IMG/VR virus record: IMGVR_UViG_3300021962_000022
Reading direction: 5' to 3' (one strand)
Source of the DNA: a virus
Lineage: Duplodnaviria > Caudoviricetes
DNA length: 64,000 nucleotides
The first letter of the stretch is position 1; the number at the start of each line of letters is the position of its first letter. The translations under genes were made by a program, and so were the position numbers. The notes under the pieces were generated by a model. That model worked only from the letters and a program-made list of their open reading frames with translations, searched no databases and was not told the DNA's origin. Shown here in pieces: positions 22,289-53,470 of the stretch.

Positions 22289-25200
22289 TTAGCAATCAAA
22301 AATGGAACTACTTAATTCTACATTGGTTGGTTCTGTAGAACAATAATTGGCGTCGATATAATATTGACCGAGATTAAATCCGATGTTTGGATGTTTATTG
22401 TATTTGTGTTTCATTAGGATTTGTTCGTCCGTATTTCCGTTGAAAACGACAACAAATTCATCTGTTAGTGGTGTGTTGTTTAATTCGAAATTTAAATTAA
22501 AGTACAATCCTGATTCACAGTAATTTAAATCTACATCAATAACTTCTATTATGTCACCATATTGGTTTATTAAATAATCTCCATGATTATATAATTCTTT
22601 AGGGTGGTCACAACAAGGTTCTATAAAATCCGTTGGTTTCTTTTGTAATTCTTCAGGGAAACGGTCATCAAAGAAATAGGTACTATTTGTTGGTGTACCA
22701 AAATCTTCAACTATTCTGTTTGTATAGACTCTTAATTGTGTTGTCGGTAAAACTTCAAAAACTTCATAAGTGTTATTTAAAGTCAATCCGGTAATAATAC
22801 TTTTTTTAACTGAAGCCAAACATTCGATATCGGTAATTTCAAGTTTTTGGTAATTAAATGTGAAAGAGTAACCCGAAACAGGTCCGTTTACAATCTGTTG
22901 GTTTGTGTATCCTGAACATGGTTTATATGATGCAGATAAAACGAATTCACCAACATTTAAATCACACACATTTTTCTCTACAATAGAACCATTACCTATG
23001 TATGTTTGAACATTCGCTTCTGTGGTTTGATTATTAATGGTTAATCCACTATTAACCGCTAAAACTATGGAATCACATTTTAAACCGTAATTGAAAATTG
23101 ATTTATATTCAACTTTAGGTTGTATTGTGTAACCCGTGTAGTTATCACAATATGTTGCGCCTGAAATAACAGAAATCGGGTTTGATATTGACCCTTGATA
23201 ACCAACAATATTGAATAATTCTACGTGACTTTTACCATTAGGTGTTGGACATGGGTCGTGTTCTATCTTTCCTTGTAGTCCATCAATTTTAAAGTTAACT
23301 TCCTTATTTGCTGCGTCAACAATATTAAAATTAATTACGTCATTTTCAGATACACCTGTTAGTTTGTACACACAATCACTAACTTTTTCAATGTGTACGT
23401 CCGCATTCTCATTTGTTCCACTTACACAGTTAGCGTAAATGTGGAATGGCCATGTAGAACCTTGTTGTACACCTGTTTTATATCCAATAACCTCGAAAAA
23501 TACGTCACTTACTAATGTACATCCACTAGGTGTGTCACAAAAAGCTTCATTATCGGTGTAAACTTTAACACTGATACCGTTTGTGTTTTTAGTTACGTTA
23601 TAATCGGCTTCAAATCGATAATCAAAATAATCAGTAACGGAACATTCATTTGGACCTAATTTTACAGATGAAAATTTAACCTTTTCAACGTCATTTTCGT
23701 CAATAAATGTTTGGTATTTTATTAAAGGTATTGTCTCAGAAAAATAAGTTTGTCCTGTGGTTCCCGTAAACGCAGAATATGGTACATAACCAGCACTATT
23801 TCTTGTTATAGTGATGTCTGATATTAATTCAGATAATGCGTTTAACCATAAACTTTTGATTTGAGTAACATTAGGTTCAAGATAGGTTTTGTAATCACAA
23901 ATTAGAGATAAATTAACTGTGTCTCCACTTGTTACACCACTTGTACAACCTGTAAATGGTTGTGGGTCGAATAATTTAGCACTGTTAGAGGTGTTACTTG
24001 TTCCACTTAAGATTACATACATTGAAGATGTTAATCCAGTGTAGTCTGCACCGCCGTAAATTGTCCCATCTATTTCAATAATAGGGTAGTAGGTTACTCC
24101 AGTTAAGTTTATTAGCCCTCTAAAATTATTTTCTTCACCTAAAATATTTTCTAAATCCTCTTCAATAATAGTTTCAAAGTCAGGATAAAGTTCTTCAATA
24201 AATTCTAATGGTTGACAATCGTATCTATATTGATATTTTGGTCTACCGAATATATTATTTTCAATTAAATTACCACCTGTCCATAAAGTCGTTGATGGTA
24301 CTAATTGTTCAACTAATTGTGGCCAATAAGGTGATAATTTGTTTACAAATTCAATAACATTTATTTGATTATAAGGGGTAAAACCTGTGGTTTGTGAGAT
24401 ATAATCTTGAAAAACATCTTCTAATTGTATGTAATTCTTTTTGTATCGAATTTTATTTGAATTTGTTACAAGACCATGGATAAATGTGTCTAAAAATTCC
24501 GCAAATGTTTTACCTGTTTGTGGTAATAAAGTATTTGAACCGAAACTTATTAATAATTCCCTACTTTGTCTATAGATATCGTAGTCAATACCTCTTGCTG
24601 GTGATATGTATATACCAATATTTTTTCTATTTAAGATTAATAGATAATCATCCTCAATCGGTTTACCGTTACCATTATCAATATCGGGAACTAACTCATA
24701 TCCTGTATCTAATCCAGGTAGTGTTCGGTACAGATTAAAATAATCTTCACCATATGTGTAACCCTTGTTTTTTGTTTTAATTGATTTTGTTGTTCCCGTT
24801 AATGTTGAATTTTCAGAATCCAAAACAAGGGGAGAACGATGTGATAAAGTGATATCGTACCAACCAGAACCTTTTTCAAAAAATATTCCTTCGGTTGCAT
24901 TAAACGCTCTTCTTGGTAAACCTGTTAATTCATCAACAGGGTAACCATCTCTATCAAAAGTTGTTGACGCGGAGTATGTAACATTGGTATATGTGTAACC
25001 TGTTGTATCAAAAGTTGCGTATGAATACGTTTTGTTACCTTGAATCGCGTCATATATGTCTTGTTGTAAATCAAAACTAGCAGGGATTGATGTTACTTTA
25101 TAAACGTATTCATCAATTCTAATTAAAGGTTCGGGCGCTCCTAAGAATTTTAAAAAGAAATCAATAGAAGACCTAGTACCTTTTGATTTATAAATGTGAG

Positions 25201-26530
25201 CTAAGTTTATTAATAATCTTCTATAAAATTCATATTCGGCTTCAACTAAATTTGTACCTGTAGATACTCCGTTGTAATTTGAATCTAATCTTGAATATAG
25301 AACATCATTCAAACTATTTTCGTCAAATAAATTTAGTGTTGATAATCCTAAATTCTCTGCTAAATTCTTTAAAAGTACATCTGGTAAATTATTGATGCCG
25401 TCATAACTAACATTTCTCATGTAAGCTATGTTGTCAATATATTTTTTTACACTATCAAAACTTTGTCCATATAATTGGAAAACACTTTCGGCTCTTTTGT
25501 CCTCGGTGTCAAATTCAAATAACTGAGGTGCTGCCAAAAATCTAACCATTAAATTAGATTTATAACCATCTATTTCATCCGCAATATCTTTTAAGTGGTT
25601 CACATAGATGTCATAATCAAATCCTGTGATTTGTATATTATAACCATCACTTGAAATCGGCCACGTTAAAACAACATCAACCAAGGACGTTTTTGTATTG
25701 TCTTGGGTGTCTCTTGGAACTTTAAATGTTGAGGTGTAAATTGGATTTGTATCTCTATTTAAAAGAGATTCCTCTAAATCATCTAAACCTTGGAAGAATT
25801 CTTCCACTAAACCGTCATTGGGTCTTATTAAAAGATTACTTGAATAAGTTGAACCCGTGAACGGTTTACCATATACCCTTAATAAAATTTTATTATCCGT
25901 GTTTGGTTCGGTGTATTCTAAAATAGGGTATGGTGTGTTGTCTGTAACAACAACATATTTTGTGTAAGAAGAGTAAAAATTTCTTAATTCATTTTCGGTC
26001 TCTGGTTTAATTACCGAATTCGGTTCAACAAAAACTAATTCAAATGGATTAAAGATTTTACTTCTCTCAATATAAAAAGTTGTGGTATTGGTACTATCGT
26101 TATATGTAATTCCACTCGCACTAAAATTCGATACACCTATTGGACTATCTGCCAATATGGAAATAGCACCGGGGAATTTATTAATAATTTTAGTTAATGA
26201 AACTAAGATTCTACTTCTTAAAGAACCAAATAATGATTTATCAGCATATTTTTTATTTCCCTTAAATCTTACCTCATCCGTTCTTTTTTTTCTTGGAGTT
26301 GGGGATGTTGTTTGTATGCCCTCAACCTCTTTTAAAGTATCTAAAGTTAAAAATTGAGAAAATGGATTAGATGTAAAATTCTTAGAATCTTTGTCAGGAA
26401 TAGACTTGTCGAGCGCAAATACGGTGTTGGTTAGAGCGGACGACCCATCGGTTATCTGTCTACCAACTAAGAAATCACTAAATGTTTCCGCCCCGCTTGA
26501 CGCTTGACTTGGTACTTTCCTTTTTGCCAT
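22289..26530 (-). CDS. 1413-aa baseplate wedge-like structural protein (gp7/P2 gpI-like segment) with Cys-rich C-terminal extension
   Basis: IYKSKGTRSSIDFFLKFLG matches the Y-K-x-KGT pattern of wedge proteins; position in the baseplate operon. Confidence 0.7.
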   Translation of the reverse strand: MAKRKVPSQASSGAETFSDFLVGRQITDGSSALTNTVFALDKSIPDKDSKNFTSNPFSQFLTLDTLKEVEGIQTTSPTPRKKRTDEVRFKGNKKYADKSLFGSLRSRILVSLTKIINKFPGAISILADSPIGVSNFSASGITYNDSTNTTTFYIERSKIFNPFELVFVEPNSVIKPETENELRNFYSSYTKYVVVTDNTPYPILEYTEPNTDNKILLRVYGKPFTGSTYSSNLLIRPNDGLVEEFFQGLDDLEESLLNRDTNPIYTSTFKVPRDTQDNTKTSLVDVVLTWPISSDGYNIQITGFDYDIYVNHLKDIADEIDGYKSNLMVRFLAAPQLFEFDTEDKRAESVFQLYGQSFDSVKKYIDNIAYMRNVSYDGINNLPDVLLKNLAENLGLSTLNLFDENSLNDVLYSRLDSNYNGVSTGTNLVEAEYEFYRRLLINLAHIYKSKGTRSSIDFFLKFLGAPEPLIRIDEYVYKVTSIPASFDLQQDIYDAIQGNKTYSYATFDTTGYTYTNVTYSASTTFDRDGYPVDELTGLPRRAFNATEGIFFEKGSGWYDITLSHRSPLVLDSENSTLTGTTKSIKTKNKGYTYGEDYFNLYRTLPGLDTGYELVPDIDNGNGKPIEDDYLLILNRKNIGIYISPARGIDYDIYRQSRELLISFGSNTLLPQTGKTFAEFLDTFIHGLVTNSNKIRYKKNYIQLEDVFQDYISQTTGFTPYNQINVIEFVNKLSPYWPQLVEQLVPSTTLWTGGNLIENNIFGRPKYQYRYDCQPLEFIEELYPDFETIIEEDLENILGEENNFRGLINLTGVTYYPIIEIDGTIYGGADYTGLTSSMYVILSGTSNTSNSAKLFDPQPFTGCTSGVTSGDTVNLSLICDYKTYLEPNVTQIKSLWLNALSELISDITITRNSAGYVPYSAFTGTTGQTYFSETIPLIKYQTFIDENDVEKVKFSSVKLGPNECSVTDYFDYRFEADYNVTKNTNGISVKVYTDNEAFCDTPSGCTLVSDVFFEVIGYKTGVQQGSTWPFHIYANCVSGTNENADVHIEKVSDCVYKLTGVSENDVINFNIVDAANKEVNFKIDGLQGKIEHDPCPTPNGKSHVELFNIVGYQGSISNPISVISGATYCDNYTGYTIQPKVEYKSIFNYGLKCDSIVLAVNSGLTINNQTTEANVQTYIGNGSIVEKNVCDLNVGEFVLSASYKPCSGYTNQQIVNGPVSGYSFTFNYQKLEITDIECLASVKKSIITGLTLNNTYEVFEVLPTTQLRVYTNRIVEDFGTPTNSTYFFDDRFPEELQKKPTDFIEPCCDHPKELYNHGDYLINQYGDIIEVIDVDLNYCESGLYFNLNFELNNTPLTDEFVVVFNGNTDEQILMKHKYNKHPNIGFNLGQYYIDANYCSTEPTNVELSSSIFDC

Positions 26531-27447
26531 TATTCTGTTATAGTATCAAAGTTTAAGGTTTCATCTACATCATTTCTTTCTTCACGAATCTCATATAATG
26601 TCTCATTAAATTCGTCTTTAACTTCGTAAAGATTGTATTGTCTATAGATATTATTGTTGTTGTCATAAATGGTATAGATACCTTGTGAAACCGCCTTACT
26701 TTGATTACCATACAGAGCGTGTGCCAGTGTTGAAGCGTCGTGTTCAACCATTTCAATCTCTATCGTGGTTGGATTTAAATATGTGTTTGTTAAAATGATT
26801 TTTTGTGATGGTACACCAATAAATGGTACTGTATTTGGCTTGTTAGTGGGGGCTGAAGATGGTGTTACCGTTAGGAACATTAAATTCGTTGCTTGTTCAC
26901 TATATTGATATCTAATCGCTTTTTGTGACGTACTTGTTAAATTTGAAACGATTGGTGTACAGTAGAAAGATGATGTAACAATTCTATAAAAATTTGGTAT
27001 TTTTTTATTGTCAGAAGAATTGATGTATTCTATTCTATATCCGACTAATCCTTGTGGTGTAAATTTGTTTCTATCGTCAGCAGGGACGTTTGATAAATCG
27101 ATAACCAAACCTCTAACTGAGGGTAATGATGCTAAAATTCCACAATCAGTAATACTTGTTCTTATCTGTTTTGGTCGAATGTGTAAAGTATAAACACCTA
27201 AATCAGCAAAATCATCTGCGGTTAGTTTTAAATTATACAACCCACCTAAAATTTCGACATTTGGTGCTGAGGTGTCTTCCGTAGTATCTGAATTATGATA
27301 CACGGGTGTTAATACCTCAACTGAACTTAATTTTTTAAGTGTAACAGTTGACGTGCTATTTCTATCCGAAACATAGTGAAAATAAATTTCAACATCTTCC
27401 GGCGATACATCTGATGGTCTAATTATACCGTAACTACCTACTGCCAT
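26530..27447 (-). CDS. 305-aa conserved phage structural protein (baseplate-associated)
   Basis: ORF track; stop overlaps the next start (TAATG); TATTTATT upstream. Confidence 0.8.
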   Translation of the reverse strand: MAVGSYGIIRPSDVSPEDVEIYFHYVSDRNSTSTVTLKKLSSVEVLTPVYHNSDTTEDTSAPNVEILGGLYNLKLTADDFADLGVYTLHIRPKQIRTSITDCGILASLPSVRGLVIDLSNVPADDRNKFTPQGLVGYRIEYINSSDNKKIPNFYRIVTSSFYCTPIVSNLTSTSQKAIRYQYSEQATNLMFLTVTPSSAPTNKPNTVPFIGVPSQKIILTNTYLNPTTIEIEMVEHDASTLAHALYGNQSKAVSQGIYTIYDNNNNIYRQYNLYEVKDEFNETLYEIREERNDVDETLNFDTITE

Positions 27448-27457
27448 GTTTTTTAAT

Positions 27458-27465
27458 AATAAATA
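27458..27465 (-). promoter_or_regulatory. Putative late promoter variant TATTTATT
   Basis: 10 nt upstream of the ATG at 27447. Confidence 0.5.
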
Positions 27466-27471
27466 TAAAAT

Positions 27472-28638
27472 TTATTGTTTTCTAATATTAAAATATCCAT
27501 TTCCGTAAATTGATAATTCTCCTGTGTTATCAATTTCGGATAATCGTAATGTTTTTTCCATAACTCCTTGTTTACCTCTCTCTACGAAAATATCCGAATA
27601 AATTACCGGTTCGTCAATGAATCCTAAGAAATGTTCGTTCCTTGTAATAACTTTATTTATCACCTCTTCTTTAGTGAAACCTGAAGTTGTACCTGTAATT
27701 GTTGTAATTCCATCCGCAAAATCTTGATAATATAAATTGTCAATGGTGTAGGCACTGTACGAAACACCGTTTGTGACACCAGTGGTGACACCTGAGTAGG
27801 TGTTTGTACCATATAATTTTAATTCACTGATTTTACTCTTACCTATAGCAGCATATGTAAATGTGGTGTAACCTGTATTCAAACCTGAGTAATCCAAATC
27901 ATTTAGATAATTTTGTGTTTGACCTGTAATATTTGTATAAGGTATTGTGAATCCTGAGAAAGTTCCAAGTGGATTACTTACAGTGGTGTTGGATGGTACT
28001 TGTACCTTTTTCTTTGTTTCAAACTGACTCCAAGGAGTGTTGATTGATATTGATATCGTCGTCTCACCTGTTGATGAGTAAGTTTTTGACGCGGTGATAC
28101 CTGTTGTTGATAAAATACTTGTTGTGCCATCACCCCAATCCACAGTAAAGTCAATAAAGTGTATTTCGGAAACTTTAGTTGTGTCCACGGTATTGTAAAC
28201 TTGAACTGTGTTACCTGTTTGTGTATAAGAAAAATTACATATCTGTTCAACTTGTTCTAAGTTACCGTCAAATCCAACCATAACACCCATTTCATCAATG
28301 TGAGTTTCCAAGAATATTGGTAACATATGTTCACCATATGCCTCACCTTTGGTGATGTTTTCCCAAGCGTACAATTCAAGGCTTAAATCACATCCCTCAT
28401 CACCGTAAGAAGTTGTTGCAATACTATTACCTGTCCAAACATAGTACCCCGAAGAGACTGTTCCGCCGGTTACGTTATAAACAACAAATCCATCTAATGG
28501 GTCTAAATACTGTGATTCTGACCATGATATTAAACTACCCAAACTATTGTACCAATACGGTCCATCGTTTGAATACAATTTAACATTAGGAATATTCTTC
28601 CTAAGTATCTCGTATTTTGTGGGTGATTTAATATCCAT
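27472..28638 (-). CDS. 388-aa structural protein with PKD-like Ig domain
   Basis: FTVDWGDGT is the PKD-domain WxFGDG-type signature; beta-rich. Confidence 0.75.
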   Translation of the reverse strand: MDIKSPTKYEILRKNIPNVKLYSNDGPYWYNSLGSLISWSESQYLDPLDGFVVYNVTGGTVSSGYYVWTGNSIATTSYGDEGCDLSLELYAWENITKGEAYGEHMLPIFLETHIDEMGVMVGFDGNLEQVEQICNFSYTQTGNTVQVYNTVDTTKVSEIHFIDFTVDWGDGTTSILSTTGITASKTYSSTGETTISISINTPWSQFETKKKVQVPSNTTVSNPLGTFSGFTIPYTNITGQTQNYLNDLDYSGLNTGYTTFTYAAIGKSKISELKLYGTNTYSGVTTGVTNGVSYSAYTIDNLYYQDFADGITTITGTTSGFTKEEVINKVITRNEHFLGFIDEPVIYSDIFVERGKQGVMEKTLRLSEIDNTGELSIYGNGYFNIRKQ

Positions 28639-29468
28639 TATTGTTTTCTCTCATAAAAATTTATTGGTGCGGATGTGGTTCCTTTTCTCGTACCTAATGA
28701 ACCATTATATGCGTAAACGATATAAGAATAATCCGTCCTATCTATAATTACTTTATAATAAACATCTTCTTCTTCAACGTAAGGTGTCGTCGCGTTTACC
28801 GTTTTTGATTTATTAACAAAATCTATAACACTACCGTCTTTCGCATTGTAATATTTGGCGGTCATATAGAATGTGTTACCTGTGATATTGGTTTCACTAA
28901 ATGGTGAATCATCAGCAAACCAAAAAAAGTACATATTTTCTGTATTTCTATAATTTGAACCAGTAAAAACTGGTACGTAGATAAAATCATTTAATGGTAG
29001 TGTTGCACCTGATGGAGTACCTGTATAATATATTCTTTCACCTAAGGGTAGTGATAAATTTTTCGCAAAAACTAACCTTCTGTTTGTTTGGTTTGGTGAT
29101 TGGTCATTGTTTGTTTTATAAAATTCTAATCTGAAAAAACTTTCTGTTGATTGTTTTAACATTTTTGAATTTTCTTCCATGGTAATTGATACATCTTCAT
29201 AATTTTGAGAGTAGTTACCAAGACTGTTTAAAAAATAAAAGTTATACCATATATCAGTTTGTTGATATGGAGTACCATAGGGTGGCATTTGTTCATACGA
29301 GGAATGTATATATCTTACGGTCTCGTAATTTTCTGTTGGGTTGATTATTTCATAAAGAATTTCTTGCTCCATTTCTTGGGCATTATCTGTCCATCCTAAA
29401 TCAGTTTTAAACATCTGATTTGAAGAAATTAAAATGGATTGGTCGTTATTTTTAGCAAGAATTTTCAT
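28638..29468 (-). CDS. 276-aa phage structural protein
   Basis: ORF track; translationally coupled (TAATG overlap at 28638). Confidence 0.8.
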   Translation of the reverse strand: MKILAKNNDQSILISSNQMFKTDLGWTDNAQEMEQEILYEIINPTENYETVRYIHSSYEQMPPYGTPYQQTDIWYNFYFLNSLGNYSQNYEDVSITMEENSKMLKQSTESFFRLEFYKTNNDQSPNQTNRRLVFAKNLSLPLGERIYYTGTPSGATLPLNDFIYVPVFTGSNYRNTENMYFFWFADDSPFSETNITGNTFYMTAKYYNAKDGSVIDFVNKSKTVNATTPYVEEEDVYYKVIIDRTDYSYIVYAYNGSLGTRKGTTSAPINFYERKQ

Positions 29469-29469
29469 A

Positions 29470-31230
29470 TTAACATTTAAACTTATTTACATTTTTAACC
29501 GCGTCTTGTTTATTTGTGTAAATGTTTTCATTTCGTAAATAGAAATTGATGTCACTTTTTACATAATGAATATTGTTTATGAATGGATAGTTTGTCCCAA
29601 AACCCTCTGGGTCTATAAATCCATGGTCATATAAATCTCTCCATTTCCAAAGAGCTTCGTCTTCCATATATTTCGCATTCTGTGGTAATCCATAAACTTG
29701 GTTTGTTTTGGATGTTTCTATATAAGGGGAAAGTTGTCTTAATTTTACTCTGTGGTGTGGTTGATAAAACAACCCATACATGTTTGTAATTGAACCACCC
29801 GAAAAAGTACTTGTTGTACCTGTTTGTCCATAATCAAAAACAAAAAGTGGGTTTGAAAATCTATGATATGCCTCACTTATTATTCTCTCTTGTAATTCTG
29901 TACGATTATACTCAACAAACGCCCCGTGTAAAACAGTGTTCAATGGTAAGTCTGTTCCTGATACAAAATTGTATGTTGTGGCACTAATTGTTCTACTAAA
30001 TCCACTAGTTGTTATGGATGTTTCAGTTGAACCCGTTCCATTAAAATGTTTATCAACCCAAGTATTGTGAAAATTAAATTTCCACCCAACTTTTGGTGGG
30101 TATTGAAAATATCCATTTCTGTTAGCTAATATGACTGTTACATACAAATCTGTTGGTAGGTAACCTAAATTGTTTGTTAATCCTGTTAAAATAAATGGTT
30201 CTTTAAAATCATAAATTAAAGATTCCATCATGTTCCTCTCAACTAAAACGTCTGAAACTCCGGCACTATTTTCTAACAATAATTTTCTTTCGTTTTCCCA
30301 AATTGATGATTCAAATCCAATCTTATCTAAGATATAATCTTCTCTTTCTGTAAGTGTTTTATGTTTATGAACGTAGTAACTCGATGTTGAACCTGTGATG
30401 TTATTCCTATCAAGACATCTTTTACCAAAAACAACAGTCGATAGTGTTGTTCCCGATGGTAATTCGGATTTTGATATTTCTAAAACATATTTTTCAGAAT
30501 CATATATTGAATCCCCAACACTTATAATACTAAATGTTCTACCTGTAACATTTACGGTATTGTTGAAACTTCCACCACTAAGTGTAATGAATTCACCTGA
30601 TGACATTCCATGTTCAACGGGACTAGTAAATTTATAAGAATTAGGTAAACTTTCGACTCTAAATGGTATACCGTCACCAGCAGTAAAACTAAATGAAGTC
30701 CCACCACTTAAAGTATATTTCATTGGATAGGTACTGTCCTGACCATACACATAGGATAAATAAACATTCCAATTGTGGTAAGGAGCATCTATACTTGTTA
30801 TCGTGACATGTTCAGTTTCACCAGAATAAGTTATAACGGGTGTGTATGTTGTTAAAGATGATACCGTTTGTATGGTGTTCACTTGTCTGAATACATCTTT
30901 TCTTAGGAACGCAAATTCTTGATAAGGTAAAAACCCATCAAAATTATTATTACTACCATCTCCAACTAAATAAAGTCTCTTTAAAAGTGGGTTATATTCA
31001 GATGACCCACTATAAAGATTCCTAAAGACCATTTTTAATTTACCATGTATCTTATAATTGGTGCTCTCGTTCCTTTCTTTATTGAATAATTCGGCATTAT
31101 TTAAGATTATCGTTCTATCACCTTCTCTTAAAAGATTTTCGGTTTCCTCTAATCCAACTCGAATCGTTTGGTCTTCATTAATTGAGCCAAAAAACTTTTT
31201 AGATGGTAATATGATTCTTTTTTTATCCAT
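29470..31230 (-). CDS. 586-aa phage structural protein (contains an HGxxxG small beta-barrel module)
   Basis: ORF track; coupled to its neighbours; VEHGMSSGEFITLSG motif. Confidence 0.8.
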   Translation of the reverse strand: MDKKRIILPSKKFFGSINEDQTIRVGLEETENLLREGDRTIILNNAELFNKERNESTNYKIHGKLKMVFRNLYSGSSEYNPLLKRLYLVGDGSNNNFDGFLPYQEFAFLRKDVFRQVNTIQTVSSLTTYTPVITYSGETEHVTITSIDAPYHNWNVYLSYVYGQDSTYPMKYTLSGGTSFSFTAGDGIPFRVESLPNSYKFTSPVEHGMSSGEFITLSGGSFNNTVNVTGRTFSIISVGDSIYDSEKYVLEISKSELPSGTTLSTVVFGKRCLDRNNITGSTSSYYVHKHKTLTEREDYILDKIGFESSIWENERKLLLENSAGVSDVLVERNMMESLIYDFKEPFILTGLTNNLGYLPTDLYVTVILANRNGYFQYPPKVGWKFNFHNTWVDKHFNGTGSTETSITTSGFSRTISATTYNFVSGTDLPLNTVLHGAFVEYNRTELQERIISEAYHRFSNPLFVFDYGQTGTTSTFSGGSITNMYGLFYQPHHRVKLRQLSPYIETSKTNQVYGLPQNAKYMEDEALWKWRDLYDHGFIDPEGFGTNYPFINNIHYVKSDINFYLRNENIYTNKQDAVKNVNKFKC

Positions 31231-34200
31231 TATTCTTGAGTCGGGAATGCACCTTTCGGTCCAAATAATTTTATGAATTTATCAATAGCAGTTGCTCCCG
31301 GTCTTAATCCAAAATAGAATAAGAATGGTGTGGAAAGAATTTGTTTAGTACCTGTATAGTTTACGTCTGTTGGTTTTAATATAAAATCAACATCGAAATT
31401 CCAAGGTTTTGATTCCCAACCACCTAATTCACCTACTCTAATCCATAAAGTACCACCTAATGGAGTCGCGGTGGTTCCTGATGTAATATGTAAAACGGTA
31501 AAACCTTCTTCTTGATTATTATAGTTCAAGTGAACGTCCGTGGTATCTTCTACATCAAATGAACCATCATTAACATCCGCACCTGCAATTGTAAATGTGT
31601 TACCCGAATAATCTTTAGTCATTGGGAACAACAAGTAATTATAAGTGGTATCACCAGTGAATGCATAGTTATATGTCATCCCTTGTAATCTTTGAGAAAC
31701 CACTGTTGAGTAATCCCATGATTGACCATATCCTTCACCAAATCCTTGACCTTTTTTGTCCCAATAAAAGAATGGAACTATTTGAGAAGATTCTGTTAAT
31801 CTACCTGGTTCATTTAAACAAACTCTTACTCTATAACCTTCATCATCAAAAACAAAATTTATCGGCATCGGTCCATTTGCAGAACCTGATTGTGATTTGA
31901 ATAGTTGTTGATAATCATCGGGGTCTAATATTGTTGGACTGTATTGACCGTAATATCTATTTTGTAAATCAAATTCTTCAATACCAACTTCGTTATTAAT
32001 TGAAATAAGTTGTGTCACATCACCGTTTAAAATCTGTTTGTATGTGTTAAACGGATATGTAGACGTATACCCCGTATTTGAAAAGAAATCTTTATACCCA
32101 AACTCCGCATTTGTGTCGAGTCTATAATTGATATACAATCCCAACATTTCTTTAAAGTTTTGATATGAAGTTGGTCCTATATTTCTTACAACAGAACAAT
32201 TAGGGTCTAGAGTTGGGTCAACACATATTTCTTTTATAAACTCATCTCTCGGACCTAAATCCATAATTGTTGTTGGGTGTCTTAAAGTACTAAACTGCGA
32301 ACCTGATGATGTTTTTTGAAAAATCGAACCATTCCATTTTGTGGACCTGTAGTAAAATCTTTTTACCGGTTCATTGGATGTTTTTTCTTTTACTTTATAG
32401 TAAACTAAGTTTTCACAATAATTTGTTCCTCTTACATTCAAATCTAAATTTTCTTCATCATCCCATCTCACTCTCGCTTTAAATGGGAACATATACAACG
32501 AACCCGCTAACCAATTATCAAAAAATGAATAATTTGCAATACCCTCACAGAATACTTTATTGACTAATTTTCTTCTAGCATATTCTCTAATTAATTTGAA
32601 TTGCACGGGTCTATTGTCACCATGTGCAGCGGGTATTACTGTATAAACACCAAATCTAAATTCGGAAAATCCACTTCTAGTATCACATGGTGGATTTTTA
32701 CAAGGATTTTTAGATAGGTTATTTGCTGCAACTTGACCAACAATCATTAAATTTAAACTGTTACAATTAGTTCCGGGATTTGCGATAACTTGGGAAGTAT
32801 TATTATAATCCGCGGTCACTCCTGACGCACAATAGGTTAATGGTACTATACCACTATCATCATAGATTGTATTTTGAGATAAACACCCTTCTGGTAATGC
32901 ACTACTATCAAATGAACTGATTGATGAGCCCGTGAAAGGATAGTAGTTATCGTATATTTCATATGTAAAACCTGTCCAAACATAATCTTTTGGTATCGAT
33001 TGGTTTCTCCAACTTAAATACGAACCAGTATCTTGAGCAACATAACCCGTGGTTGAACCAGATACATATGTTGATAGATTTAACTCAAAGGTTGTACCGG
33101 TGGTTAATGTCCCCAATGTTGTTATGTCTGAACTTTGTGCGTAAGGGTTGGCGATATAGTACAATAACTTAACATAATAAGTTCTACCTGTGGCACTACC
33201 TGAGAGGTAATTGTTGTATATAGTTGTTAATGACTGACCATAGGTGTATCCCGTGTAATTGTATTGGGTCAAACCTGAAGATGGTAATTCACTTAATATA
33301 TATTCATCAATATTACTAATTGGGTCTGCAATGTAAACATCAGTAACCGTACTATCGCAAGTTCCAACTACTGACGGAACAGCATCACCACCCGAATAAG
33401 CCATTGAACCATCTCTAGCACAGATTCCACTTGTTGGGGAACCACTAAATGGTATTGAAACACTTTGTGGTGTGTTTGTTGTACAATCAATCCAATTATA
33501 TGTTGTTGTACCTGTTGTTGGTACATTTAAATTATATGTTGTACAGTTTACTAAAAATCTTAATTTATCCCTAACCGCTCTACCCGAACCAACTTTTTGA
33601 TAAATTAAAGACGGGTCACTTTCGGTTGGTGGGTTTTCATTAAAAACTTGTATTTCATCACACGATTCACACTCGGGATAAACTACAGTACTAAGATGAA
33701 CGGTACCCAAAGCTTGTAAAGGTTCAATGACCACACTATCGAAAAAATTAAATGGTCTCCAATTTATAATTGTAGCACCTAATGCTCGTATGTAAATACG
33801 AAAATCATACAGGAATTGAAATGGTATAATTATGATTTGTATTGCACCAACAAAAGCGGTGTATATTACCCTTTCAAATACATTAATTATAATTGCCAAT
33901 AAAATAGCAAAACTAAACTTTCTCCACGCGTAATTAATTGGTGGTGTAACTACACTTGATTCACAATCCTCTTCGGCTTTTGGTGCAATATCTTTAATAC
34001 CTAAGAAATTATCTTTTTCACCTATAAAAAAGTGACCACTTCTATAAGAAGTCACCGAATATACCTTATTGTATGAGAATCTATAGAAATAATCTTCAGG
34101 GAAATAACTTCCATAAGTTTGGTTAAAAATAACCGAAGAACTTGTTGCCGAAGTTGGATAGTCATCCCAATCTAATGAGAAGGCGTATGAACCATCAACA

Positions 34201-35363
34201 TCAGAATTGTATTCTCGTATATTTGGGAGTAAATAACTAGCAACATATCTAACTCTACCTAAAGTTTGGTTTTTACCTGATATTCTAAATCGATAACACG
34301 CGGAAGTTGGGATTCCTTTGTTTGGGTCGTTTGTGATTTCGTTTTCACCAAATTCGTTTGTGAATATAAAATCCATATTCATAGGTAATGGAACCACGAA
34401 TGAACCATCTTCCTCTATGTCTTCTTGAATTTCATATCTTTCTAATATAGGTCTACCCTTTGTATCTTTATTTGGTGTGAATCTTATTATTTCAATTGTT
34501 GCATCAAATGTTGTTAAATCACATTTTCGACCCATTTCACCCCGAGGTCTACAATTTTTATTGAGTGTATTTTTACCTTTGTCTGAATAAATCGAACCTA
34601 ATAGATATGCTTTAGGTTCAACCTTAACACCCTTACTTGATAAATCAAAGTCGGTTCTGGTTAATCCAATCTCACATAAATCTTCGTTACCCCAAAAAGG
34701 ATAAACCTCTACTGTTTGATTGAATGAAACAATTTGAGGTAAAGTATCTAAATCGTTTGATGATTTGTAAGAATATGTATTTTTGAATTTGTCAACCCCA
34801 AGTCCTTGTCTAATAAAATCATCAGGTCTTAATGAAAAACAACCAATATCTGATAAATCAACATCAACATGTATTGTTTGTATACCAACAGGTACACCCC
34901 AAATCATGAAGTCACCAGCATCGTTTGTTTTAACGGTGTACTTGTAATATTTTTCATACACTTCAAGTACTTCTTCTCTTGTTAAAATATCTTTTTGGTC
35001 AGGAAACGTACCGGTTGGTTCATGTCCTCCGTGTTGTTTTCTACTCGGTAATAAATTATAACGATAACCATTCTCATTCCTATCGTCAACTGTTGTAAAC
35101 GGATAAAGAGCCGATATTACAGGGTCGTTAGAGTCCTCTTCGGATATTGGAATAAAAATCGAGACTCTGGCGTTTGGTACACCAAAACCGTTATTTACAA
35201 AAATTCGACCGCAGACAACACCGTAATCCGCACACATTGACGAATACGCTTCGGTTTGTGTAAACTTAAGAGATAAAATCTCCAATAAATCGAAGTCGTT
35301 TTTAAGTTCGACTACGACTTTTTGGTCTTTACCTATATTTGTGGAAATTCTATGTTTCTGCAT
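31230..35363 (-). CDS. 1377-aa structural protein with N-terminal carboxypeptidase-regulatory/prealbumin-like domain, a hydrophobic segment and Cys modules
   Basis: GRIFVNNGFGVPNARVSI and KTNDAGDFMIWGVPVG motifs; TATTTATA upstream. Confidence 0.75.
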   Translation of the reverse strand: MQKHRISTNIGKDQKVVVELKNDFDLLEILSLKFTQTEAYSSMCADYGVVCGRIFVNNGFGVPNARVSIFIPISEEDSNDPVISALYPFTTVDDRNENGYRYNLLPSRKQHGGHEPTGTFPDQKDILTREEVLEVYEKYYKYTVKTNDAGDFMIWGVPVGIQTIHVDVDLSDIGCFSLRPDDFIRQGLGVDKFKNTYSYKSSNDLDTLPQIVSFNQTVEVYPFWGNEDLCEIGLTRTDFDLSSKGVKVEPKAYLLGSIYSDKGKNTLNKNCRPRGEMGRKCDLTTFDATIEIIRFTPNKDTKGRPILERYEIQEDIEEDGSFVVPLPMNMDFIFTNEFGENEITNDPNKGIPTSACYRFRISGKNQTLGRVRYVASYLLPNIREYNSDVDGSYAFSLDWDDYPTSATSSSVIFNQTYGSYFPEDYFYRFSYNKVYSVTSYRSGHFFIGEKDNFLGIKDIAPKAEEDCESSVVTPPINYAWRKFSFAILLAIIINVFERVIYTAFVGAIQIIIIPFQFLYDFRIYIRALGATIINWRPFNFFDSVVIEPLQALGTVHLSTVVYPECESCDEIQVFNENPPTESDPSLIYQKVGSGRAVRDKLRFLVNCTTYNLNVPTTGTTTYNWIDCTTNTPQSVSIPFSGSPTSGICARDGSMAYSGGDAVPSVVGTCDSTVTDVYIADPISNIDEYILSELPSSGLTQYNYTGYTYGQSLTTIYNNYLSGSATGRTYYVKLLYYIANPYAQSSDITTLGTLTTGTTFELNLSTYVSGSTTGYVAQDTGSYLSWRNQSIPKDYVWTGFTYEIYDNYYPFTGSSISSFDSSALPEGCLSQNTIYDDSGIVPLTYCASGVTADYNNTSQVIANPGTNCNSLNLMIVGQVAANNLSKNPCKNPPCDTRSGFSEFRFGVYTVIPAAHGDNRPVQFKLIREYARRKLVNKVFCEGIANYSFFDNWLAGSLYMFPFKARVRWDDEENLDLNVRGTNYCENLVYYKVKEKTSNEPVKRFYYRSTKWNGSIFQKTSSGSQFSTLRHPTTIMDLGPRDEFIKEICVDPTLDPNCSVVRNIGPTSYQNFKEMLGLYINYRLDTNAEFGYKDFFSNTGYTSTYPFNTYKQILNGDVTQLISINNEVGIEEFDLQNRYYGQYSPTILDPDDYQQLFKSQSGSANGPMPINFVFDDEGYRVRVCLNEPGRLTESSQIVPFFYWDKKGQGFGEGYGQSWDYSTVVSQRLQGMTYNYAFTGDTTYNYLLFPMTKDYSGNTFTIAGADVNDGSFDVEDTTDVHLNYNNQEEGFTVLHITSGTTATPLGGTLWIRVGELGGWESKPWNFDVDFILKPTDVNYTGTKQILSTPFLFYFGLRPGATAIDKFIKLFGPKGAFPTQE

Positions 35364-35370
35364 TCTTCTA

Positions 35371-35378
35371 TATAAATA
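35371..35378 (-). promoter_or_regulatory. Putative late promoter motif TATTTATA
   Basis: Exact motif 7 nt upstream of the ATG at 35363. Confidence 0.6.
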
Positions 35379-35417
35379 GAAAATTATGGATTTCCAGAAA
35401 AATAAATAAAAATTAAA

Positions 35418-37250
35418 TTAGAATGTAGTCGTTCCTAAGGTTTTTACTCTAACTTTTATATCTTTCTGTGGAAATCTTATTTGATATATTTGGTTAGATT
35501 TCATGTATATGGTCATATCTGATTGTGAAATTTCTTTTGTGTTAGCATCAACATAAGCTTGGGCAACTTCAGAAGATGAATATTCACCACCGATATTATT
35601 GAAAACCCTAATATCAACAGCGTTTACAACACCATTTACTTCACCTATTGTTTTGTATAAATCACCAACGAATAATGGGTCTCCCATTTTTCTTTTTTCT
35701 ATTGAAAAATAACTCACTGTATCCTCGATAATTGTTTTAACAATTTCTGTTTGGTTTCCGTTTTTATCGATTACAACATCAATTTCTAATGTGAAATCAA
35801 CAACTTCACCACTCTCAACGTCTAAGAAGTCATTGACCATTCTATATTCAGCCAAATATGTAAGTATATTATTTTTTAGTGTGTTGGAAACAGTATCAAT
35901 TAAATTACCATTTTCATCATAAGACAGTAATTTAATTTTAATCTTATTGTCTTCTTCCATCACATTAACTTTAGCTGGTGCACCATAAGTAGATGGCATT
36001 GTTTCAATTAAAGACTTATAGTCATTAAGTGTAACCGCTCTGTTTTGTGCTGAGAAGTTATATGCAATCATGTTTCTAACTTCTTCAATACTTGGTTGGT
36101 CAGCTCCACCCACTGCGGGAGTTACGTTGGTAACGGTTAAAGAATTCTGTACTTGTGTATTTGTATTTGAATTTGGTCCACCTACAACAAATTCTACGTT
36201 ATCAACACTCGTAATAACATCAATACCAATGTTACTATCTTTTCCACCACCTATTCTATATTTTACGAATAAAGTGGTGTTTGATTTTGGTAATGCCCCA
36301 AGTGATAGGTTGTTAAGGTAAGTACCAAGACTTACTCTTAAACTACCTTGATTGTAGTTATCTAAATTATCCAAAGGATTCACATTGCCAGAACCGAATG
36401 TTACCGAAAAATAATTTTCAGGTGTGTATTCTGTGATAAATTTATTTGTTACAGGTACATAAGTTCCTGATATAAAATTATCACTATCTGAAGCCGATGT
36501 TGGGTCAGGGATAAAAACTTTATCTTGTATTAAAGTTTTTACTTCATACCATTTGTTTTCTGAACTTAAAAATTCAGAATTAGTAGGGTTATTTACGAAG
36601 TTTGTACCTTCTTTATGGATGACACCACTAACACCTAAAATATTTTGTTCGGGTAAATAAATTTTTAAAAAGGGTTTTTGGTCTACTTCTGTAATAACTT
36701 TTCTAAAGATTCTCGTAACCCCATTAACAACCGCTTCTCTCTTTACAATCGAATATGAAATTAATCTATTATTACCATCAAAATTAGGAATTTTTAATCT
36801 GTTAGGTTCCCCTCTTTTGTTGAATGGGTTTGAGAAGTCAATGTCCTCTATGGTTTCAAAAACTTGTCCTCCACCAGAAACTTGTGCCCCCGATTTAATT
36901 GTACCTAAATAACGTTCATCTTCCTTATCACCTCTAACAGGTACTTGTATTGTAAAATCACACAAAGCAACTGATGGTCGGTTTCCTGGTATTCTCATAC
37001 CGTATGTCTTAGCAATATGATATAAGGATTGTCTTTGTTGTGCAAAATCCAACATGGTTTCTTGCCAAACCCTATCAATATGAAAGTGTAAGTTATCTGT
37101 TACAGCGGCGTTTAAATCCAATAATACAGAATATATTGACGCGTCATTTGTGTTTTTAATTAAATCAGGATAATATTCCCTTGTAAGATTGACTAATTCC
37201 TGTCTTAAACTAGCAAAGTCTCTTACGGCATATGATATTTTTTTAGCCAT
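35418..37250 (-). CDS. Baseplate wedge subunit (T4 gp6 / P2 gpJ-like), 610 aa
   Basis: RDFASLRQEL, GGADQPSIEEVR and QNRAVTLNDY motifs; follows the gp25-like gene. Confidence 0.88.
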   Translation of the reverse strand: MAKKISYAVRDFASLRQELVNLTREYYPDLIKNTNDASIYSVLLDLNAAVTDNLHFHIDRVWQETMLDFAQQRQSLYHIAKTYGMRIPGNRPSVALCDFTIQVPVRGDKEDERYLGTIKSGAQVSGGGQVFETIEDIDFSNPFNKRGEPNRLKIPNFDGNNRLISYSIVKREAVVNGVTRIFRKVITEVDQKPFLKIYLPEQNILGVSGVIHKEGTNFVNNPTNSEFLSSENKWYEVKTLIQDKVFIPDPTSASDSDNFISGTYVPVTNKFITEYTPENYFSVTFGSGNVNPLDNLDNYNQGSLRVSLGTYLNNLSLGALPKSNTTLFVKYRIGGGKDSNIGIDVITSVDNVEFVVGGPNSNTNTQVQNSLTVTNVTPAVGGADQPSIEEVRNMIAYNFSAQNRAVTLNDYKSLIETMPSTYGAPAKVNVMEEDNKIKIKLLSYDENGNLIDTVSNTLKNNILTYLAEYRMVNDFLDVESGEVVDFTLEIDVVIDKNGNQTEIVKTIIEDTVSYFSIEKRKMGDPLFVGDLYKTIGEVNGVVNAVDIRVFNNIGGEYSSSEVAQAYVDANTKEISQSDMTIYMKSNQIYQIRFPQKDIKVRVKTLGTTTF

Positions 37251-37251
37251 G

Positions 37252-37704: not shown

Positions 37705-37734
37705 ACTAATAAATATAACTAAAGAAGAAATACT

Positions 37735-40291: not shown

Positions 40292-40297
40292 AATATT

Positions 40298-41275: not shown

Positions 41276-41286
41276 GGTGTTTATTA

Positions 41287-45232: not shown

Positions 45233-45239
45233 GTATTGA

Positions 45240-53400: not shown

Positions 53401-53470
53401 AAATTAAATTGTTTTGGTCAACTTTTACAAGTATGTTCTCATTATTTGGGTAATCATTATTGCTCGCCAT
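47447..53470 (-). CDS. 2007-aa baseplate hub-like protein (gp27/gpD-like ends, large insertions)
   Basis: N-terminal FGIDSITI...PQVSINFVDVRG; C-terminal MGNVMIQPTMFFYLKNIPMFRGSYWITEVSHQI; follows the LysM-like gene. Confidence 0.7.
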   Translation of the reverse strand: MASNNDYPNNENILVKVDQNNLIYVDPNSVVDSNGEVQPRGHKQENLVMYVNLEADLIPRTTLIADDNVGNTLTQIAKGNLNFLRNASGDGNFDATWTDAFVPKPIQGQESTYKDGYDVTFGEDQFKDPTGQSFGIDSITIDVKGANFVPQVSINFVDVRGKTLFESSENSPYRAFFHLPWPIFYLTVKGYYGKAIRYRLHMTDFKSRFNDSNGNFEITTKFVGSTFAWLNDIPLSAIINCPYMFLVEESKNSKFNEKTGLYEKTLKQSSRGYTILKSIYRQYEQKGLIPKGFPVRTLKEVGYIAESLDKILEQQVFSKVSMDVFSGIKEIDSIINDFENSIKAWGKQYLSQEYTSFNRTATTDETVSDLWFYLSAKDKTETKHILGNGPGALELLLKGFNGAMNKSKLLTQNLLNETGGDFKRISIRNVKDVQSYYKILNDKKVAVYIDGLFEDIFQIRKSFEEQRKKVEDDVETKMNEVIKSKEYGFGFEPTIRNMFAVLLANAEVYIRLMKDVHNKAFDAANNRKKVLTNLSKESKGENIYPWPEVKKPQTGGKQNVVSYPGDEELVHKLKSYDKTLWPEVDFVEEYIKIATNRVETNVNNEPTRNDVNYVFDSNTENQKIEDISGIDVINESIPFVDKSYAGFVYELYERALYMTLFDSFNDKMIIQLANEEFKNIQESIKEDTDIIELAKKITNKNALIAPVSTTELKENGVIQKNTDGTPKIATTYGGYLPGLSPYERFNYYKDHLPTTNYISDVIDEPFKFDKYDEASTNPTGDLEEDNLNKILIDYEPETYRTDIYPFNSTTYLNYLGKTSFSRDNFKFNGILKVNSSQGFICSPINSKSWVKPSSSTTDFFTNTVKVSGNTTSILNTPYFHNQLFSDFNKSTLKGKYVGSSYLLLNSLPFIDLDDQITFDGKSILTSSLFREVSATHFIPYHLLLKWGSIYHRYKTHLIDGYDILDGCINPSYITRPLTGKTLFDNNGALITYTATNASSSGTTINVPSTVGLQSGMTVTVIAGTGQTAPNTFITNVTSTTGFTISQSPLTGLTGATIFAVYDEYVTFDVIPRISTTSGTTTGVTYTGYTHAGIKPFYQAVYSQIVNDYSTYDISLGNTSYSSTSQSGKILHRVRTKSGMNYWDVVMDNSKYISSDKNYTLLPSVGGHQTNSISDGNSFNLAEELSFKSIWYLDDTLSTSFSGQTFPSSYDYFRTTGNTYSVSSNYKKALDLIGTFSPQILEYMESFFLDFASEKINEEIPYRIFRNVSYPKFQDLLKKLSVVEKKDDDSNDIDLLIQTTLKERQKKNAETITNDILSSSNLIKFTLANPKEIDAYSLYGLTKIEPYGSFTTYGPQPFSAVDLTSTNLNLIKLYIGEDIDSYYVNFFSLMDIKLTEDNIKRHRPLAHIYGGYRKAGGTNTKSAFITYLQNSILIKNNDGKIVGNGAEARLALFLNTLLPQFSKLSSNTNANPAASIDMFRGYNSTQTKLELYNTFKSFNDKWTAGNSIGQRLLLEEFLFLDKANRDIGDKFYLNIDKFTPLLDSRNSKLSLYSAISMIIQGTGLDMRALPAYINFYGNNLTNRNKITPSKKVASTLFGTFLEVDYQEATPKVIIQLVGQTSKRVDMSNSKAYKFNDDSFYIGGQTPNPLLITSLDSFSQNDLSKSNRVVAFEVSFGDQNQGIFKGVTLDQTSLKNTSESFQVLEDLSRSASGAGVHNVDVSLFDYYKQASYKCGVSAMGNVMIQPTMFFYLKNIPMFRGSYWITEVSHQIRGNVISTNFSGTRIPYTSLPDPKDSFVASYRILFDKIQSKAIAKIKQRESNRTDTQDTVIYQKIPYITDRQGKNVQGETIVQDVGINRFGVPYNGYNETRLIQKVKNGNEEWLRTVVYKMGGEKYAIDDDQGFNIANGIKWSDIKSTDYKFYNVYFQLSKSITVDVIKTAKTTFKNPKNSKTLTLNPSYQLDKNVGQIVVEGPISVGPSSTTIGMGMSPKLMSELGLYDGDVVYFKMD

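What the first reader, a model, noticed from the sequence alone, without database searches (positions are those of the whole stretch)
26530..35363. [ST]-G-x-T tetrapeptide strongly enriched in structural proteins but not in enzymes
Seen (hand counts): 11 copies in the 388-aa protein (TGGT, TGNT, TGIT, TGET, SGFT x2, TGQT, TGYT, SGVT, TGVT, TGTT), 8 in the 586-aa, 13 in the 608-aa, and many more in the 1413-, 1377- and 2007-aa proteins and the sheath. NrdA, NrdB, helicase, exonuclease, RecA-like and SSB together (2,550 aa) have only 2, one of them the Walker A. Composition alone predicts about 1 per 400 aa. Inference: a sequon for a phage-encoded modification of virion proteins (for example cytoplasmic O-glycosylation, fitting the mucin-like genes), or a docking motif for a decoration protein. 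A recurring beta-turn is the mundane alternative.
Basis: partly seen in the sequence, partly recalled or inferred. Interest (0 to 1): 0.66.

Follow-up and report, generated by a model that had tools for sequence, protein, structure and literature searches.

The report
Ser/Thr-Gly-x-Thr tag on outer virion proteins
The outward-facing tail, baseplate, fibre, sheath and capsid parts of this uncultured freshwater jumbo phage carry the four-residue pattern Ser/Thr-Gly-x-Thr about eight times more often than chance. Related phages with the same proteins lack it, so it looks like a tag that something reads, perhaps a sugar-adding enzyme, although no modification has been shown.

Summary
Nine minus-strand ORFs of the window (7,067 aa) hold 88 [ST]-G-x-T against 10.9 expected (z 25). 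Shuffling within 15-residue blocks still expects only 13.3. The other 20 ORFs hold 13 against 8.5. The pattern is exact: [ST]GxS, [ST]Gx[VI] and rearranged forms are not enriched. Codons vary, so the signal is in the protein.

It is not "structural versus enzymes". Tube, hub, gp25-like and gp6-like proteins have none. The excess lies in distal baseplate and fibre proteins and, in a close relative, in the lineage-specific parts of sheath and capsid.

T4 and three distant relatives show little or no excess. Three lineages with the same syntenic module are at chance, so the folds do not need the motif. Within the clade some sites are invariant and others turn over. The Ser/Thr and Thr positions are more conserved than other Ser/Thr, while x is free.

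My best reading (0.4) is a short tag read in trans, most plausibly an O-glycosylation acceptor for phage glycosyltransferases. A lineage-specific strand-start turn (0.35) is not excluded. The glycosyltransferase link could not be tested.

The scan had already noted this motif in at least eight other jumbo-phage genomes.

The parts
3..890 (-). C-terminal 296 aa of a fibre-like protein (716 aa in relative G001); motif-rich
   Evidence: 7 [ST]GxT against 0.76 expected. The full-length orthologue has 13 against 1.06.
3226..3576 (-). 116-aa protein; motif-rich
   Evidence: 3 against 0.09 expected. The G001 orthologue has 3 against 0.08.
4329..6155 (-). 608-aa protein with Pro/Thr linkers and a phrog_15511 domain; motif-rich
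   Evidence: 13 against 3.2 expected. It has runs spaced 9, 9 and 11 residues apart and matches phrog_15511.
22289..26530 (-). 1413-aa distal baseplate or fibre protein; the most motif-rich
   Evidence: 19 against 1.4 expected. Orthologues have 12-22 at 50-90% identity. There are 49 motif columns, 8 of them conserved in at least 80% of sequences.
26530..27447 (-). 305-aa protein, the most conserved gene of the module; motif-free internal control
   Evidence: 0 in the window and 0-2 in 37 relatives. The 297-310-aa orthologues have 0 in seven of the outgroup lineages and 1 in L134.
27472..28638 (-). 388-aa protein with a PKD-like domain; motif-rich; the family studied in depth
   Evidence: 11 against 1.06 expected. 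Relatives have 8-12 at 49-99% identity. There are 27 motif columns, 6 conserved. The AF2 model has pLDDT 69 with motifs at loop-to-strand junctions. Foldseek matches PKD domains at E 3e-5.
28638..29468 (-). 276-aa protein; moderately motif-rich
   Evidence: 2 against 0.18 expected. Relatives have 2-7.
29470..31230 (-). 586-aa protein; motif-rich
   Evidence: 8 against 0.69 expected. Relatives have 7-16. There are 36 motif columns, 4 conserved.
31230..35363 (-). 1377-aa protein directly downstream of the gp6-like wedge gene; motif-rich in its C-terminal half
   Evidence: 12 against 1.47 expected, all at residues 617-1295. There are 42 motif columns.
35418..37250 (-). gp6/Baseplate_J-like wedge protein (610 aa); motif-free control
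   Evidence: Matches phrog_6 at E 3e-22. It has 0 motifs in the window and in all 27 distinct orthologues.
47447..53470 (-). 2007-aa tail or baseplate protein; all 13 motifs lie within residues 867-1215
   Evidence: 13 against 1.8 expected. The G001 orthologue has 14 against 1.9.
62415..63935 (-). Conserved C-terminal part of the tail sheath; not significantly enriched by itself
   Evidence: Matches phrog_23 at E 8e-52. It has 2 against 0.6 expected. The full-length sheath of G001 has 7 against 1.6, mostly in residues 121-303.

Best explanation
Uncharged/hydrophobic-[Ser/Thr]-Gly-x-Thr is a short linear tag written into the outward-facing parts of the virion. These are the distal baseplate and fibre proteins, a middle region of the 2007-aa protein, the lineage-specific N-terminal parts of sheath and major capsid protein, and a few unknown proteins.

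The tag sits at exposed loop-to-strand junctions of beta-rich domains. Selection keeps up its number rather than only its positions. I infer that a trans-acting factor of this phage lineage reads it. The most plausible reader is a phage-encoded glycosyltransferase that O-glycosylates the Thr (or the Ser/Thr) in the cytoplasm, during or after folding, giving the particle a sugar coat.

Shown here: the enrichment, its exact specificity, its protein-level nature, its restriction to certain lineages, its short-motif style of conservation, and its absence from orthologous modules in other lineages. Inferred: that a reader exists, that it is a glycosyltransferase, and which residue is modified.
For: 1. 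Strength and specificity. There are 88 against 10.9 expected. TGxT has O/E 8.9 and SGxT 7.5, while [ST]GxS is 1.4 and T.G[ST], [ST].GT, [ST]GT, [ST]G..T, [ST]AxT and [ST]NxT are about 1-2. In these proteins 17.7% of all Gly lie in the motif, against 1.3-2.5% in controls. Charged residues at position -1 are 0 of 88 (background 19%), and Pro at x is 0 of 88.

2. Codons at the motif follow background usage, and Ser uses both TCN and AGY.

3. It is not a generic fibre property. T4 gp34 has 0 against 1.9, gp12 1 against 1.1, gp10 2 against 0.65 and gp37 6 against 2.1. Flavobacterium phage immuto, Microcystis phage Mel-JY01 and LR756508 show little or no excess.

4. Orthologous syntenic modules are at chance in three lineages: L089 2 against 1.7, L092 1 against 2.6 and L134 6 against 3.4. 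These lineages are nested among motif-rich ones on the family tree. The same folds therefore do without the motif.

5. Turnover. Each family has 27, 36, 49 or 42 distinct motif columns against about 10-18 motifs per sequence, and control tetrapeptides mostly have 2-15 columns. Some sites are re-created one residue out of register. Homologues at 28-35% identity keep a 5-15-fold excess at mostly different positions.

6. Short-motif signature. In 4 of 5 families the position-4 Thr and the position-1 hydroxyl are more conserved than other Thr or Ser/Thr, and x is less conserved than average.

7. Genome-wide census of a 92%-complete close relative. Ten of 315 ORFs hold 106 against about 12.5 expected, and the rest are at baseline, 79 against 59.6. 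The enriched proteins have no known family in common and share location rather than fold. Capsid and sheath motifs lie in the lineage-specific parts.

8. GT2-family genes are present in all four near-complete motif-rich relatives, and two of them are conserved across about 66% protein divergence.
Against: No modification is shown.

The glycosyltransferase link is untested, because motif-poor lineages are known only from contigs of 8-60 kb.

In the only usable model (pLDDT 69) the motif lies at strand-turn-strand junctions. T141 ends a strand, G142-N143 turn, and T144 starts the next; T182 and T285 are first residues of strands. Flanks are hydrophobic and uncharged. That is what a structural turn would look like.

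A quarter to a half of the sites are positionally conserved.

One site is the canonical PKD F-G hairpin, which reads xGxY in distant homologues.

In the 1413-aa family two control patterns, [ST]GT and [ST]G..T, occupy more distinct columns (66 and 61) than the motif (49), so the turnover argument does not hold in every family.

Controls show a weak natural coupling of [ST]G with GxT, ratio 1.2-2.3.

Enrichment is not always module-wide. In lineage L139 only the 388-like protein is enriched.

The glycosyltransferases could instead serve DNA or host-surface modification.
Confidence: 0.4

Rival explanations
1. A lineage-specific structural habit. [ST]-G-x-T is a favoured turn plus strand-start element (a Ser/Thr cap, a Gly turn, then a beta-branched Thr opening the next strand). 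This clade has multiplied it in its beta-sandwich and beta-meander outer domains for stability or folding. Nothing reads it.
For: In the model the motifs lie at loop-to-strand junctions. Positions -1 and +4 are hydrophobic and charged residues are depleted over -4 to +8. Runs spaced 9-16 residues look like beta-meanders, in the 608-aa and 2007-aa proteins. Several sites are nearly invariant. One site coincides with the PKD F-G hairpin. Ordinary proteins show a weak baseline preference. An earlier scan note on a different motif (e1-5366545) reached this kind of conclusion.
Against: Orthologous proteins of the same families do without the motif in three lineages, and T4 fibres lack it. [ST]Gx[VI] and [ST]GxS are not enriched, although Val or Ile would serve a strand start as well. 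The excess cuts across unrelated proteins that share location rather than fold. Positions turn over while the number is kept.
Confidence: 0.35
2. The motif is read by a protein, or acts directly, rather than being modified. It could be a docking site for a decoration protein or an assembly chaperone. Alternatively it could form hydroxyl-rich uncharged patches that bind polysaccharide (host capsule, mucus or biofilm matrix).
For: The lineage-level contrast and short-motif conservation argue for a reader of some kind. The context is uncharged and hydroxyl-rich. The tagged proteins face outwards.
Against: No candidate partner was identified. About 190 sites per genome on more than ten different proteins is a lot for one docking partner. 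No lectin-like or chaperone gene was tied to the motif.
Confidence: 0.15
3. An artefact of composition, of a hidden sequence repeat or of a DNA-level signal.
For: The rich proteins are Thr-, Ser- and Gly-rich.
Against: Global and 15-residue block shuffles expect only 11-13 against 88 observed. Permuted arrangements of the same residues are not enriched. There is no consensus beyond positions -1 to +4. Codons vary as in the background.
Confidence: 0.01

Closest known systems
Virion glycosylation of mycobacteriophages by phage-encoded glycosyltransferases (Freeman et al. 2023, Cell Host Microbe; known to me only through its summary in PMC12619734, because the paper itself is not held)
   Same: A tailed phage carries its own glycosyltransferases and would coat exposed virion proteins with sugars.
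   Different: There, glycans are reported at the C-termini of capsid and tail-tube subunits. Here the candidate sites are a dispersed four-residue motif on baseplate, fibre, sheath and capsid insertion parts, the tube has none, and no glycan has been shown.
Cytoplasmic glycosylation of autotransporter adhesins by heptosyltransferases of the AAH/TibC family (from my own knowledge, not checked here)
   Same: Many Ser sites on a beta-rich surface adhesin are modified in the cytoplasm, within a short strand / short loop / short strand element. That resembles the loop-to-strand setting seen here.
   Different: Those sites lie in a 19-residue sequence repeat of one protein family. Here there is no longer repeat and many unrelated proteins are involved. 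No GT9-type heptosyltransferase was looked for.
General O-glycosylation of Bacteroidota, sequon D-[ST]-[AILVMT]
   Same: The likely host phylum uses a short Ser/Thr sequon.
   Different: That sequon is not enriched here (20 against 26 expected). It acts in the periplasm, whereas virions assemble in the cytoplasm.
PKD / Ig-like beta-sandwich domains with a Gly-containing F-G hairpin
   Same: The 388-aa protein contains a PKD-like domain (Foldseek E 3e-5, TM 0.73-0.79 to PKD domains). One motif occupies the hairpin that reads xGxY in distant homologues.
   Different: This accounts for one of eleven sites in one protein. Canonical PKD consensus residues are not [ST]GxT, and motif-poor orthologues keep the domain.

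Membership tests
Mycobacteriophage-type virion glycosylation | The phage encodes glycosyltransferases | tested here: met
   PF00535 matches above the cut-off occur in all four near-complete relatives G001-G004. One example is a 245-aa GT2 at E 7.6e-22. These genes lie outside the window.
Mycobacteriophage-type virion glycosylation | Glycans are attached at C-terminal ends of capsid and tail-tube subunits | tested here: not met
   The tube has 0 motifs. Capsid motifs are at residues 168-305 of 587. The sites are dispersed and internal.
Mycobacteriophage-type virion glycosylation | Glycan on virion proteins shown chemically | not testable with these tools
   This needs mass spectrometry or glycan staining of virions.
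Bacteroidota general O-glycosylation | Enrichment of D-[ST]-[AILVMT] in target proteins | tested here: not met
   20 observed against 26 expected in the rich set.
N-x-[ST] N-glycosylation (cytoplasmic NGT/HMW1C type or OST type) | Enrichment of N-x-[ST] | tested here: not met
   92 observed against 94.9 expected in the rich set.
Fibre shaft or tandem sequence repeats | The motif is the core of a longer repeated consensus at a regular period | tested here: not met
   There is no consensus beyond -1 to +4, and spacings range from 3 to 285 residues.
PKD-domain hairpin | The motif sits in a recognisable PKD domain at the F-G turn | tested here: inconclusive
   This holds for one site (residue 190) of the 388-aa protein. 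The other motif-rich proteins have no family or PDB match.

The most novel reading that the evidence does not exclude
[ST]-G-x-T is an undescribed dispersed O-glycosylation sequon. Phage glycosyltransferases read it in the cytoplasm on the surface of folded virion proteins, giving a widespread group of aquatic jumbo phages of Bacteroidota a sugar coat. Related lineages that lost the enzyme have let the motif decay.
Probability: 0.33. Interest if true: 0.85.

Novelty: new variant of a known kind. Interest (0 to 1): 0.62.

Why it matters
If the motif is an acceptor site, it would be the first sequence-defined sequon for virion glycosylation in tailed phages. It would give a function to the large, puzzling sets of glycosyltransferase and sugar-nucleotide genes of aquatic jumbo phages. 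It would also let glycosylated virion surfaces be predicted from sequence alone, which bears on host recognition, resistance to proteases and grazers, and phage stickiness in water.

If the motif is structural instead, it is still an unusually clean case of a lineage rewriting about one Gly in six of its outer proteins into a single turn type. That would be useful for annotating exposed domains in proteins that have no detectable homologues.

Tried and rejected
DNA-level signal: rejected, because codons vary as in the background.

Composition or local-composition artefact: rejected.

Hidden longer repeat: none found.

N-x-[ST] and D-[ST]-[AILVMT] sequons: not enriched.

Pfam and PHROGs on the motif-rich proteins gave only phrog_15511 of unknown function. 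PDB sequence searches with the 1377-, 1413- and 2007-aa proteins found nothing credible.

The first AF2 run on 24 close relatives gave pLDDT 48 and was discarded. The second, on 60 sequences, gave pLDDT 69. No coordinates were available, so solvent exposure could not be computed.

Testing the glycosyltransferase association failed. Motif-less and motif-poor lineages are known only from contigs of 8-60 kb, and the JGI contigs of 80-85 kb are not held for searching.

Literature searches for the motif and for phage sequons found nothing relevant. Freeman et al. 2023 is not held.

No whole genome is held for the window, so a 94%-identical, 92%-complete relative was used instead.
Full report
**What is in the window**

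All genes lie on the minus strand. In reading order they are as follows:
- Tail sheath, cut by the window end (62415-63935), then tube (61598-62086) and baseplate hub (60748-61497).
- Unknown proteins of 648, 1613 and 108 aa, then a 2007-aa protein (47447-53470).
- An inserted replication block: SSB, UvsX-like, exonuclease, DnaB-like helicase, NrdB and NrdA (37859-47192).
- A gp25-like protein (37252-37806) and a gp6/Baseplate_J-like wedge protein (35418-37250).
- Unknown proteins of 1377, 586, 276, 388, 305 and 1413 aa, then the 5331-aa Ser/Thr-rich giant.
- Proteins of 608, 235, 116 and 762 aa, and a protein cut at 296 aa by the window start.

The gp6-like protein places the phage among T4-like myoviruses. 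Its nearest named relatives are Flavobacterium phages, at 26% identity.

**Check of the observation**

- Nine ORFs (7,067 aa) carry 88 [ST]-G-x-T against 10.9 expected from shuffles (z 25).
- Shuffling within blocks of 60, 30 or 15 residues, which preserves local composition, still expects only 11.7 to 13.3.
- The other 20 ORFs, leaving out the giant, have 13 against 8.5.

The pattern is sharply defined. TGxT has O/E 8.9 and SGxT 7.5. [ST]GxS has only 1.4, and T.G[ST], [ST].GT, [ST]GT, [ST]G..T, [ST]AxT, [ST]NxT, [ST]DxT and N.[ST] are all between about 1 and 2.

Codons at the motif follow background use, and Ser is written with both TCN and AGY. The signal is therefore in the protein.

There is no longer repeat. 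The context is as follows:
- Position -1 is hydrophobic in 51% of sites and charged in 0 of 88 (background 19%).
- Pro occurs at x in 0 of 88.
- Charged residues are depleted from -4 to +8.
- In these proteins 17.7% of all Gly lie in the motif, against 2.5% in the rest of the window, 1.3% in motif-poor orthologues and 2.4% in T4 fibre and baseplate proteins.

**Which proteins carry it**

Tube, hub, gp25-like, gp6-like and the 305-aa protein have none. The 648- and 1613-aa proteins are at expectation. The giant is depleted, with 1 against 5.8.

I fetched a 288-kb, 92%-complete relative, G001, which is 94% identical in the 388-aa protein, and ran a census.
- Ten of 315 ORFs hold 106 motifs against about 12.5 expected.
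- The remaining 305 ORFs hold 79 against 59.6.
- Weaker excesses appear in several other proteins:
  - the full-length sheath (7 against 1.6, five of them in residues 121-303);
  - the 844-aa protein upstream of the sheath (7 against 2.4);
  - the major capsid protein (4 against 0.6, at residues 168-305, largely before the conserved core match that starts at 276);
  - unknown proteins of 457, 447 and 652 aa.
- Portal, terminase and DNA polymerase have 0 to 1.

What the enriched proteins share is location, on the outside of the particle, rather than any detectable family.

**Is it a generic property of fibres?**

No. T4 gp34 has 0 against 1.9, gp12 1 against 1.1, gp10 2 against 0.65 and gp37 6 against 2.1. 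The distal baseplate and fibre genes of Flavobacterium phage immuto, Microcystis phage Mel-JY01 and the uncultured LR756508 show little or no excess.

**Relatives**

Eighty IMG/VR loci carry the module at 49-99% identity. All keep the excess:
- the 388-aa family has 8-12 per sequence;
- the 586-aa family has 7-16;
- the 1413-aa family has 12-22;
- the 1377-aa family has 6-14;
- the gp6-like protein has 0 in all 27 distinct sequences.

Positions are of two kinds. Some are nearly invariant as [ST]-G-x-T, with x free and Ser and Thr interchanging at position 1 (41-43 of 43 sequences at five sites of the 388-aa family). Others come and go. The families have 27, 36, 49 and 42 distinct motif columns, whereas control tetrapeptides mostly have 2-15 columns and 0-1 conserved ones. 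The exception is the 1413-aa family, where two control patterns, [ST]GT and [ST]G..T, occupy 66 and 61 columns against 49 for the motif. Some motifs are re-created one residue out of register.

In four of five families the position-4 Thr and the position-1 hydroxyl are more conserved than other Thr or Ser/Thr of the same protein. The x position is less conserved than average.

A search of 1.84 billion representatives found 352 homologues of the 388-aa protein. Those of at least 200 aa carry 475 motifs against 98.7 expected. Most keep a 5-15-fold excess even at 28-35% identity, but at mostly different positions. Only the site at residue 319 is widely shared.

**The decisive contrast**

A few homologues have no motif. 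Their contigs carry the same syntenic module.
- At chance:
  - L089 (P0069), 2 against 1.7 expected over 3,973 aa;
  - L092 (P0083), 1 against 2.6;
  - L134 (P0021, with synteny NrdA, gp25, gp6 and onward), 6 against 3.4.
- Intermediate:
  - L097/L133 (P0092), 18-19 against 7.4-7.9;
  - L136 (P0025), 7 against 1.4.
- Rich:
  - L137 (P0057), 19 against 3.5.
- Mixed:
  - in L139 (P0094) only the 388-like protein is enriched.

On a quick tree, the motif-less lineages are nested among motif-rich ones. The same protein families therefore fold and function without the motif. The load is largely, though not perfectly, a property of the lineage across several proteins at once.

**Structure**

With 60 sequences the 388-aa protein gave a model of mean pLDDT 69, with the beta parts at 80-89. 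Foldseek finds a PKD domain in it (E 3e-5).

In the confident parts the motif lies at loop-to-strand junctions. T141 ends a strand, G142-N143 make the turn and T144 starts the next strand. T182 and T285 are first residues of strands. The site at residue 190 is the PKD hairpin that reads xGxY in distant homologues.

No coordinates were available, so exposure could not be measured.

**Interpretation**

The findings fit a short linear tag kept up by selection and read in trans. The supporting points are exact specificity (Thr, not Ser, Val or Ile, at position 4), conservation of the fixed positions with a free wildcard, turnover with the number maintained, spread over unrelated outward-facing proteins, and decay in whole modules of some lineages.

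The most plausible reader is a phage glycosyltransferase.
- GT2-family genes are present in all four near-complete motif-rich relatives, and two of them are conserved across about 66% protein divergence.
- PF00534 (GT1-family) matches also occur in all four, but pass the curated cut-off only in G003 and G004.
- One GT2-like gene lies on the same strand as, and just upstream of, a sigma-like gene and three motif-bearing unknown proteins.

None of this is shown. The association with glycosyltransferases could not be tested, because motif-poor lineages are known only from short contigs.

The structural reading, a lineage-specific strand-start turn, is supported by the model, the beta-type flanks, the positionally conserved sites and the weak baseline preference in ordinary proteins. 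I give the sequon 0.4, the structural habit 0.35, another reader or direct binding 0.15, and artefact about 0.01.

**Comparison with what is known**

Published phage virion glycosylation places glycans at the C-termini of capsid and tail-tube subunits of mycobacteriophages (summarised in PMC12619734). Here the sites are dispersed and internal, and the tube has none.

The Bacteroidota periplasmic sequon and N-x-[ST] are not enriched. I found no paper describing this motif.

**Earlier findings of the scan**

The scan has noted the same motif in at least eight other jumbo-phage genomes, one of which shares sequence words with this 388-aa protein. Their follow-ups disagree on whether it tracks glycosyltransferases. 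I treated them as leads only.

- the whole-module contrast between rich, intermediate and motif-less lineages of one syntenic module;
- the genome-wide census;
- the Gly-coupling and charge-exclusion statistics;
- the T4 and distant-relative controls.

Noticed in passing
window 26530-27447 (-): The 305-aa protein is the most conserved gene of the distal baseplate module. It is 75-100% identical where its neighbours are 49-99% identical, and a 297-310-aa orthologue is present in every lineage examined. It carries no motif in the window and none in most lineages examined, and it has no family match. It may be the structural anchor of the module.
   Followed up: partly
window 37859-47192 (-): A replication and nucleotide block (NrdA, NrdB, DnaB-like helicase, exonuclease, UvsX-like, SSB) is inserted between the hub/2007-aa genes and the gp25/gp6 wedge genes. 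The NrdA-gp25-gp6 junction is also kept in the distant lineage L134.
   Followed up: no
window 6200-22195 (-); G001 107949-124367: The Ser/Thr-rich giant protein is depleted in the motif, with 1 against 5.8 expected here and 1 against 11.9 in the relative. It has almost no Gly (0.8%). If it is glycosylated, it must use another rule.
   Followed up: partly
L097 14842-20951: In the P0092 lineage the gene that follows the module is a protein of more than 3,800 aa with VWA domains, in place of the mucin-like giant of this phage.
   Followed up: no
G001 35007-43068 (L114/L115): In the close relative, a GT2-like gene (259 aa) and a sigma-70-region-2-like gene (232 aa) lie on the same strand directly upstream of unknown proteins of 652, 519 and 457 aa. 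These carry 3, 2 and 7 motifs; the excess is significant for the 652- and 457-aa proteins.
   Followed up: partly
window 926-3214, 3619-4326, 4329-6155 (-): Three neighbouring proteins share a phrog_15511 domain of unknown function, and the 608-aa protein has Pro/Thr linkers. The same domain occurs in the 844-aa protein upstream of the sheath in G001.
   Followed up: no
window 27472-28638 (-), residues 320-388: The C-terminal 70 residues of the 388-aa protein are the most conserved part across the whole family, yet they are modelled with low confidence. This may be an oligomerisation or attachment interface.
   Followed up: no
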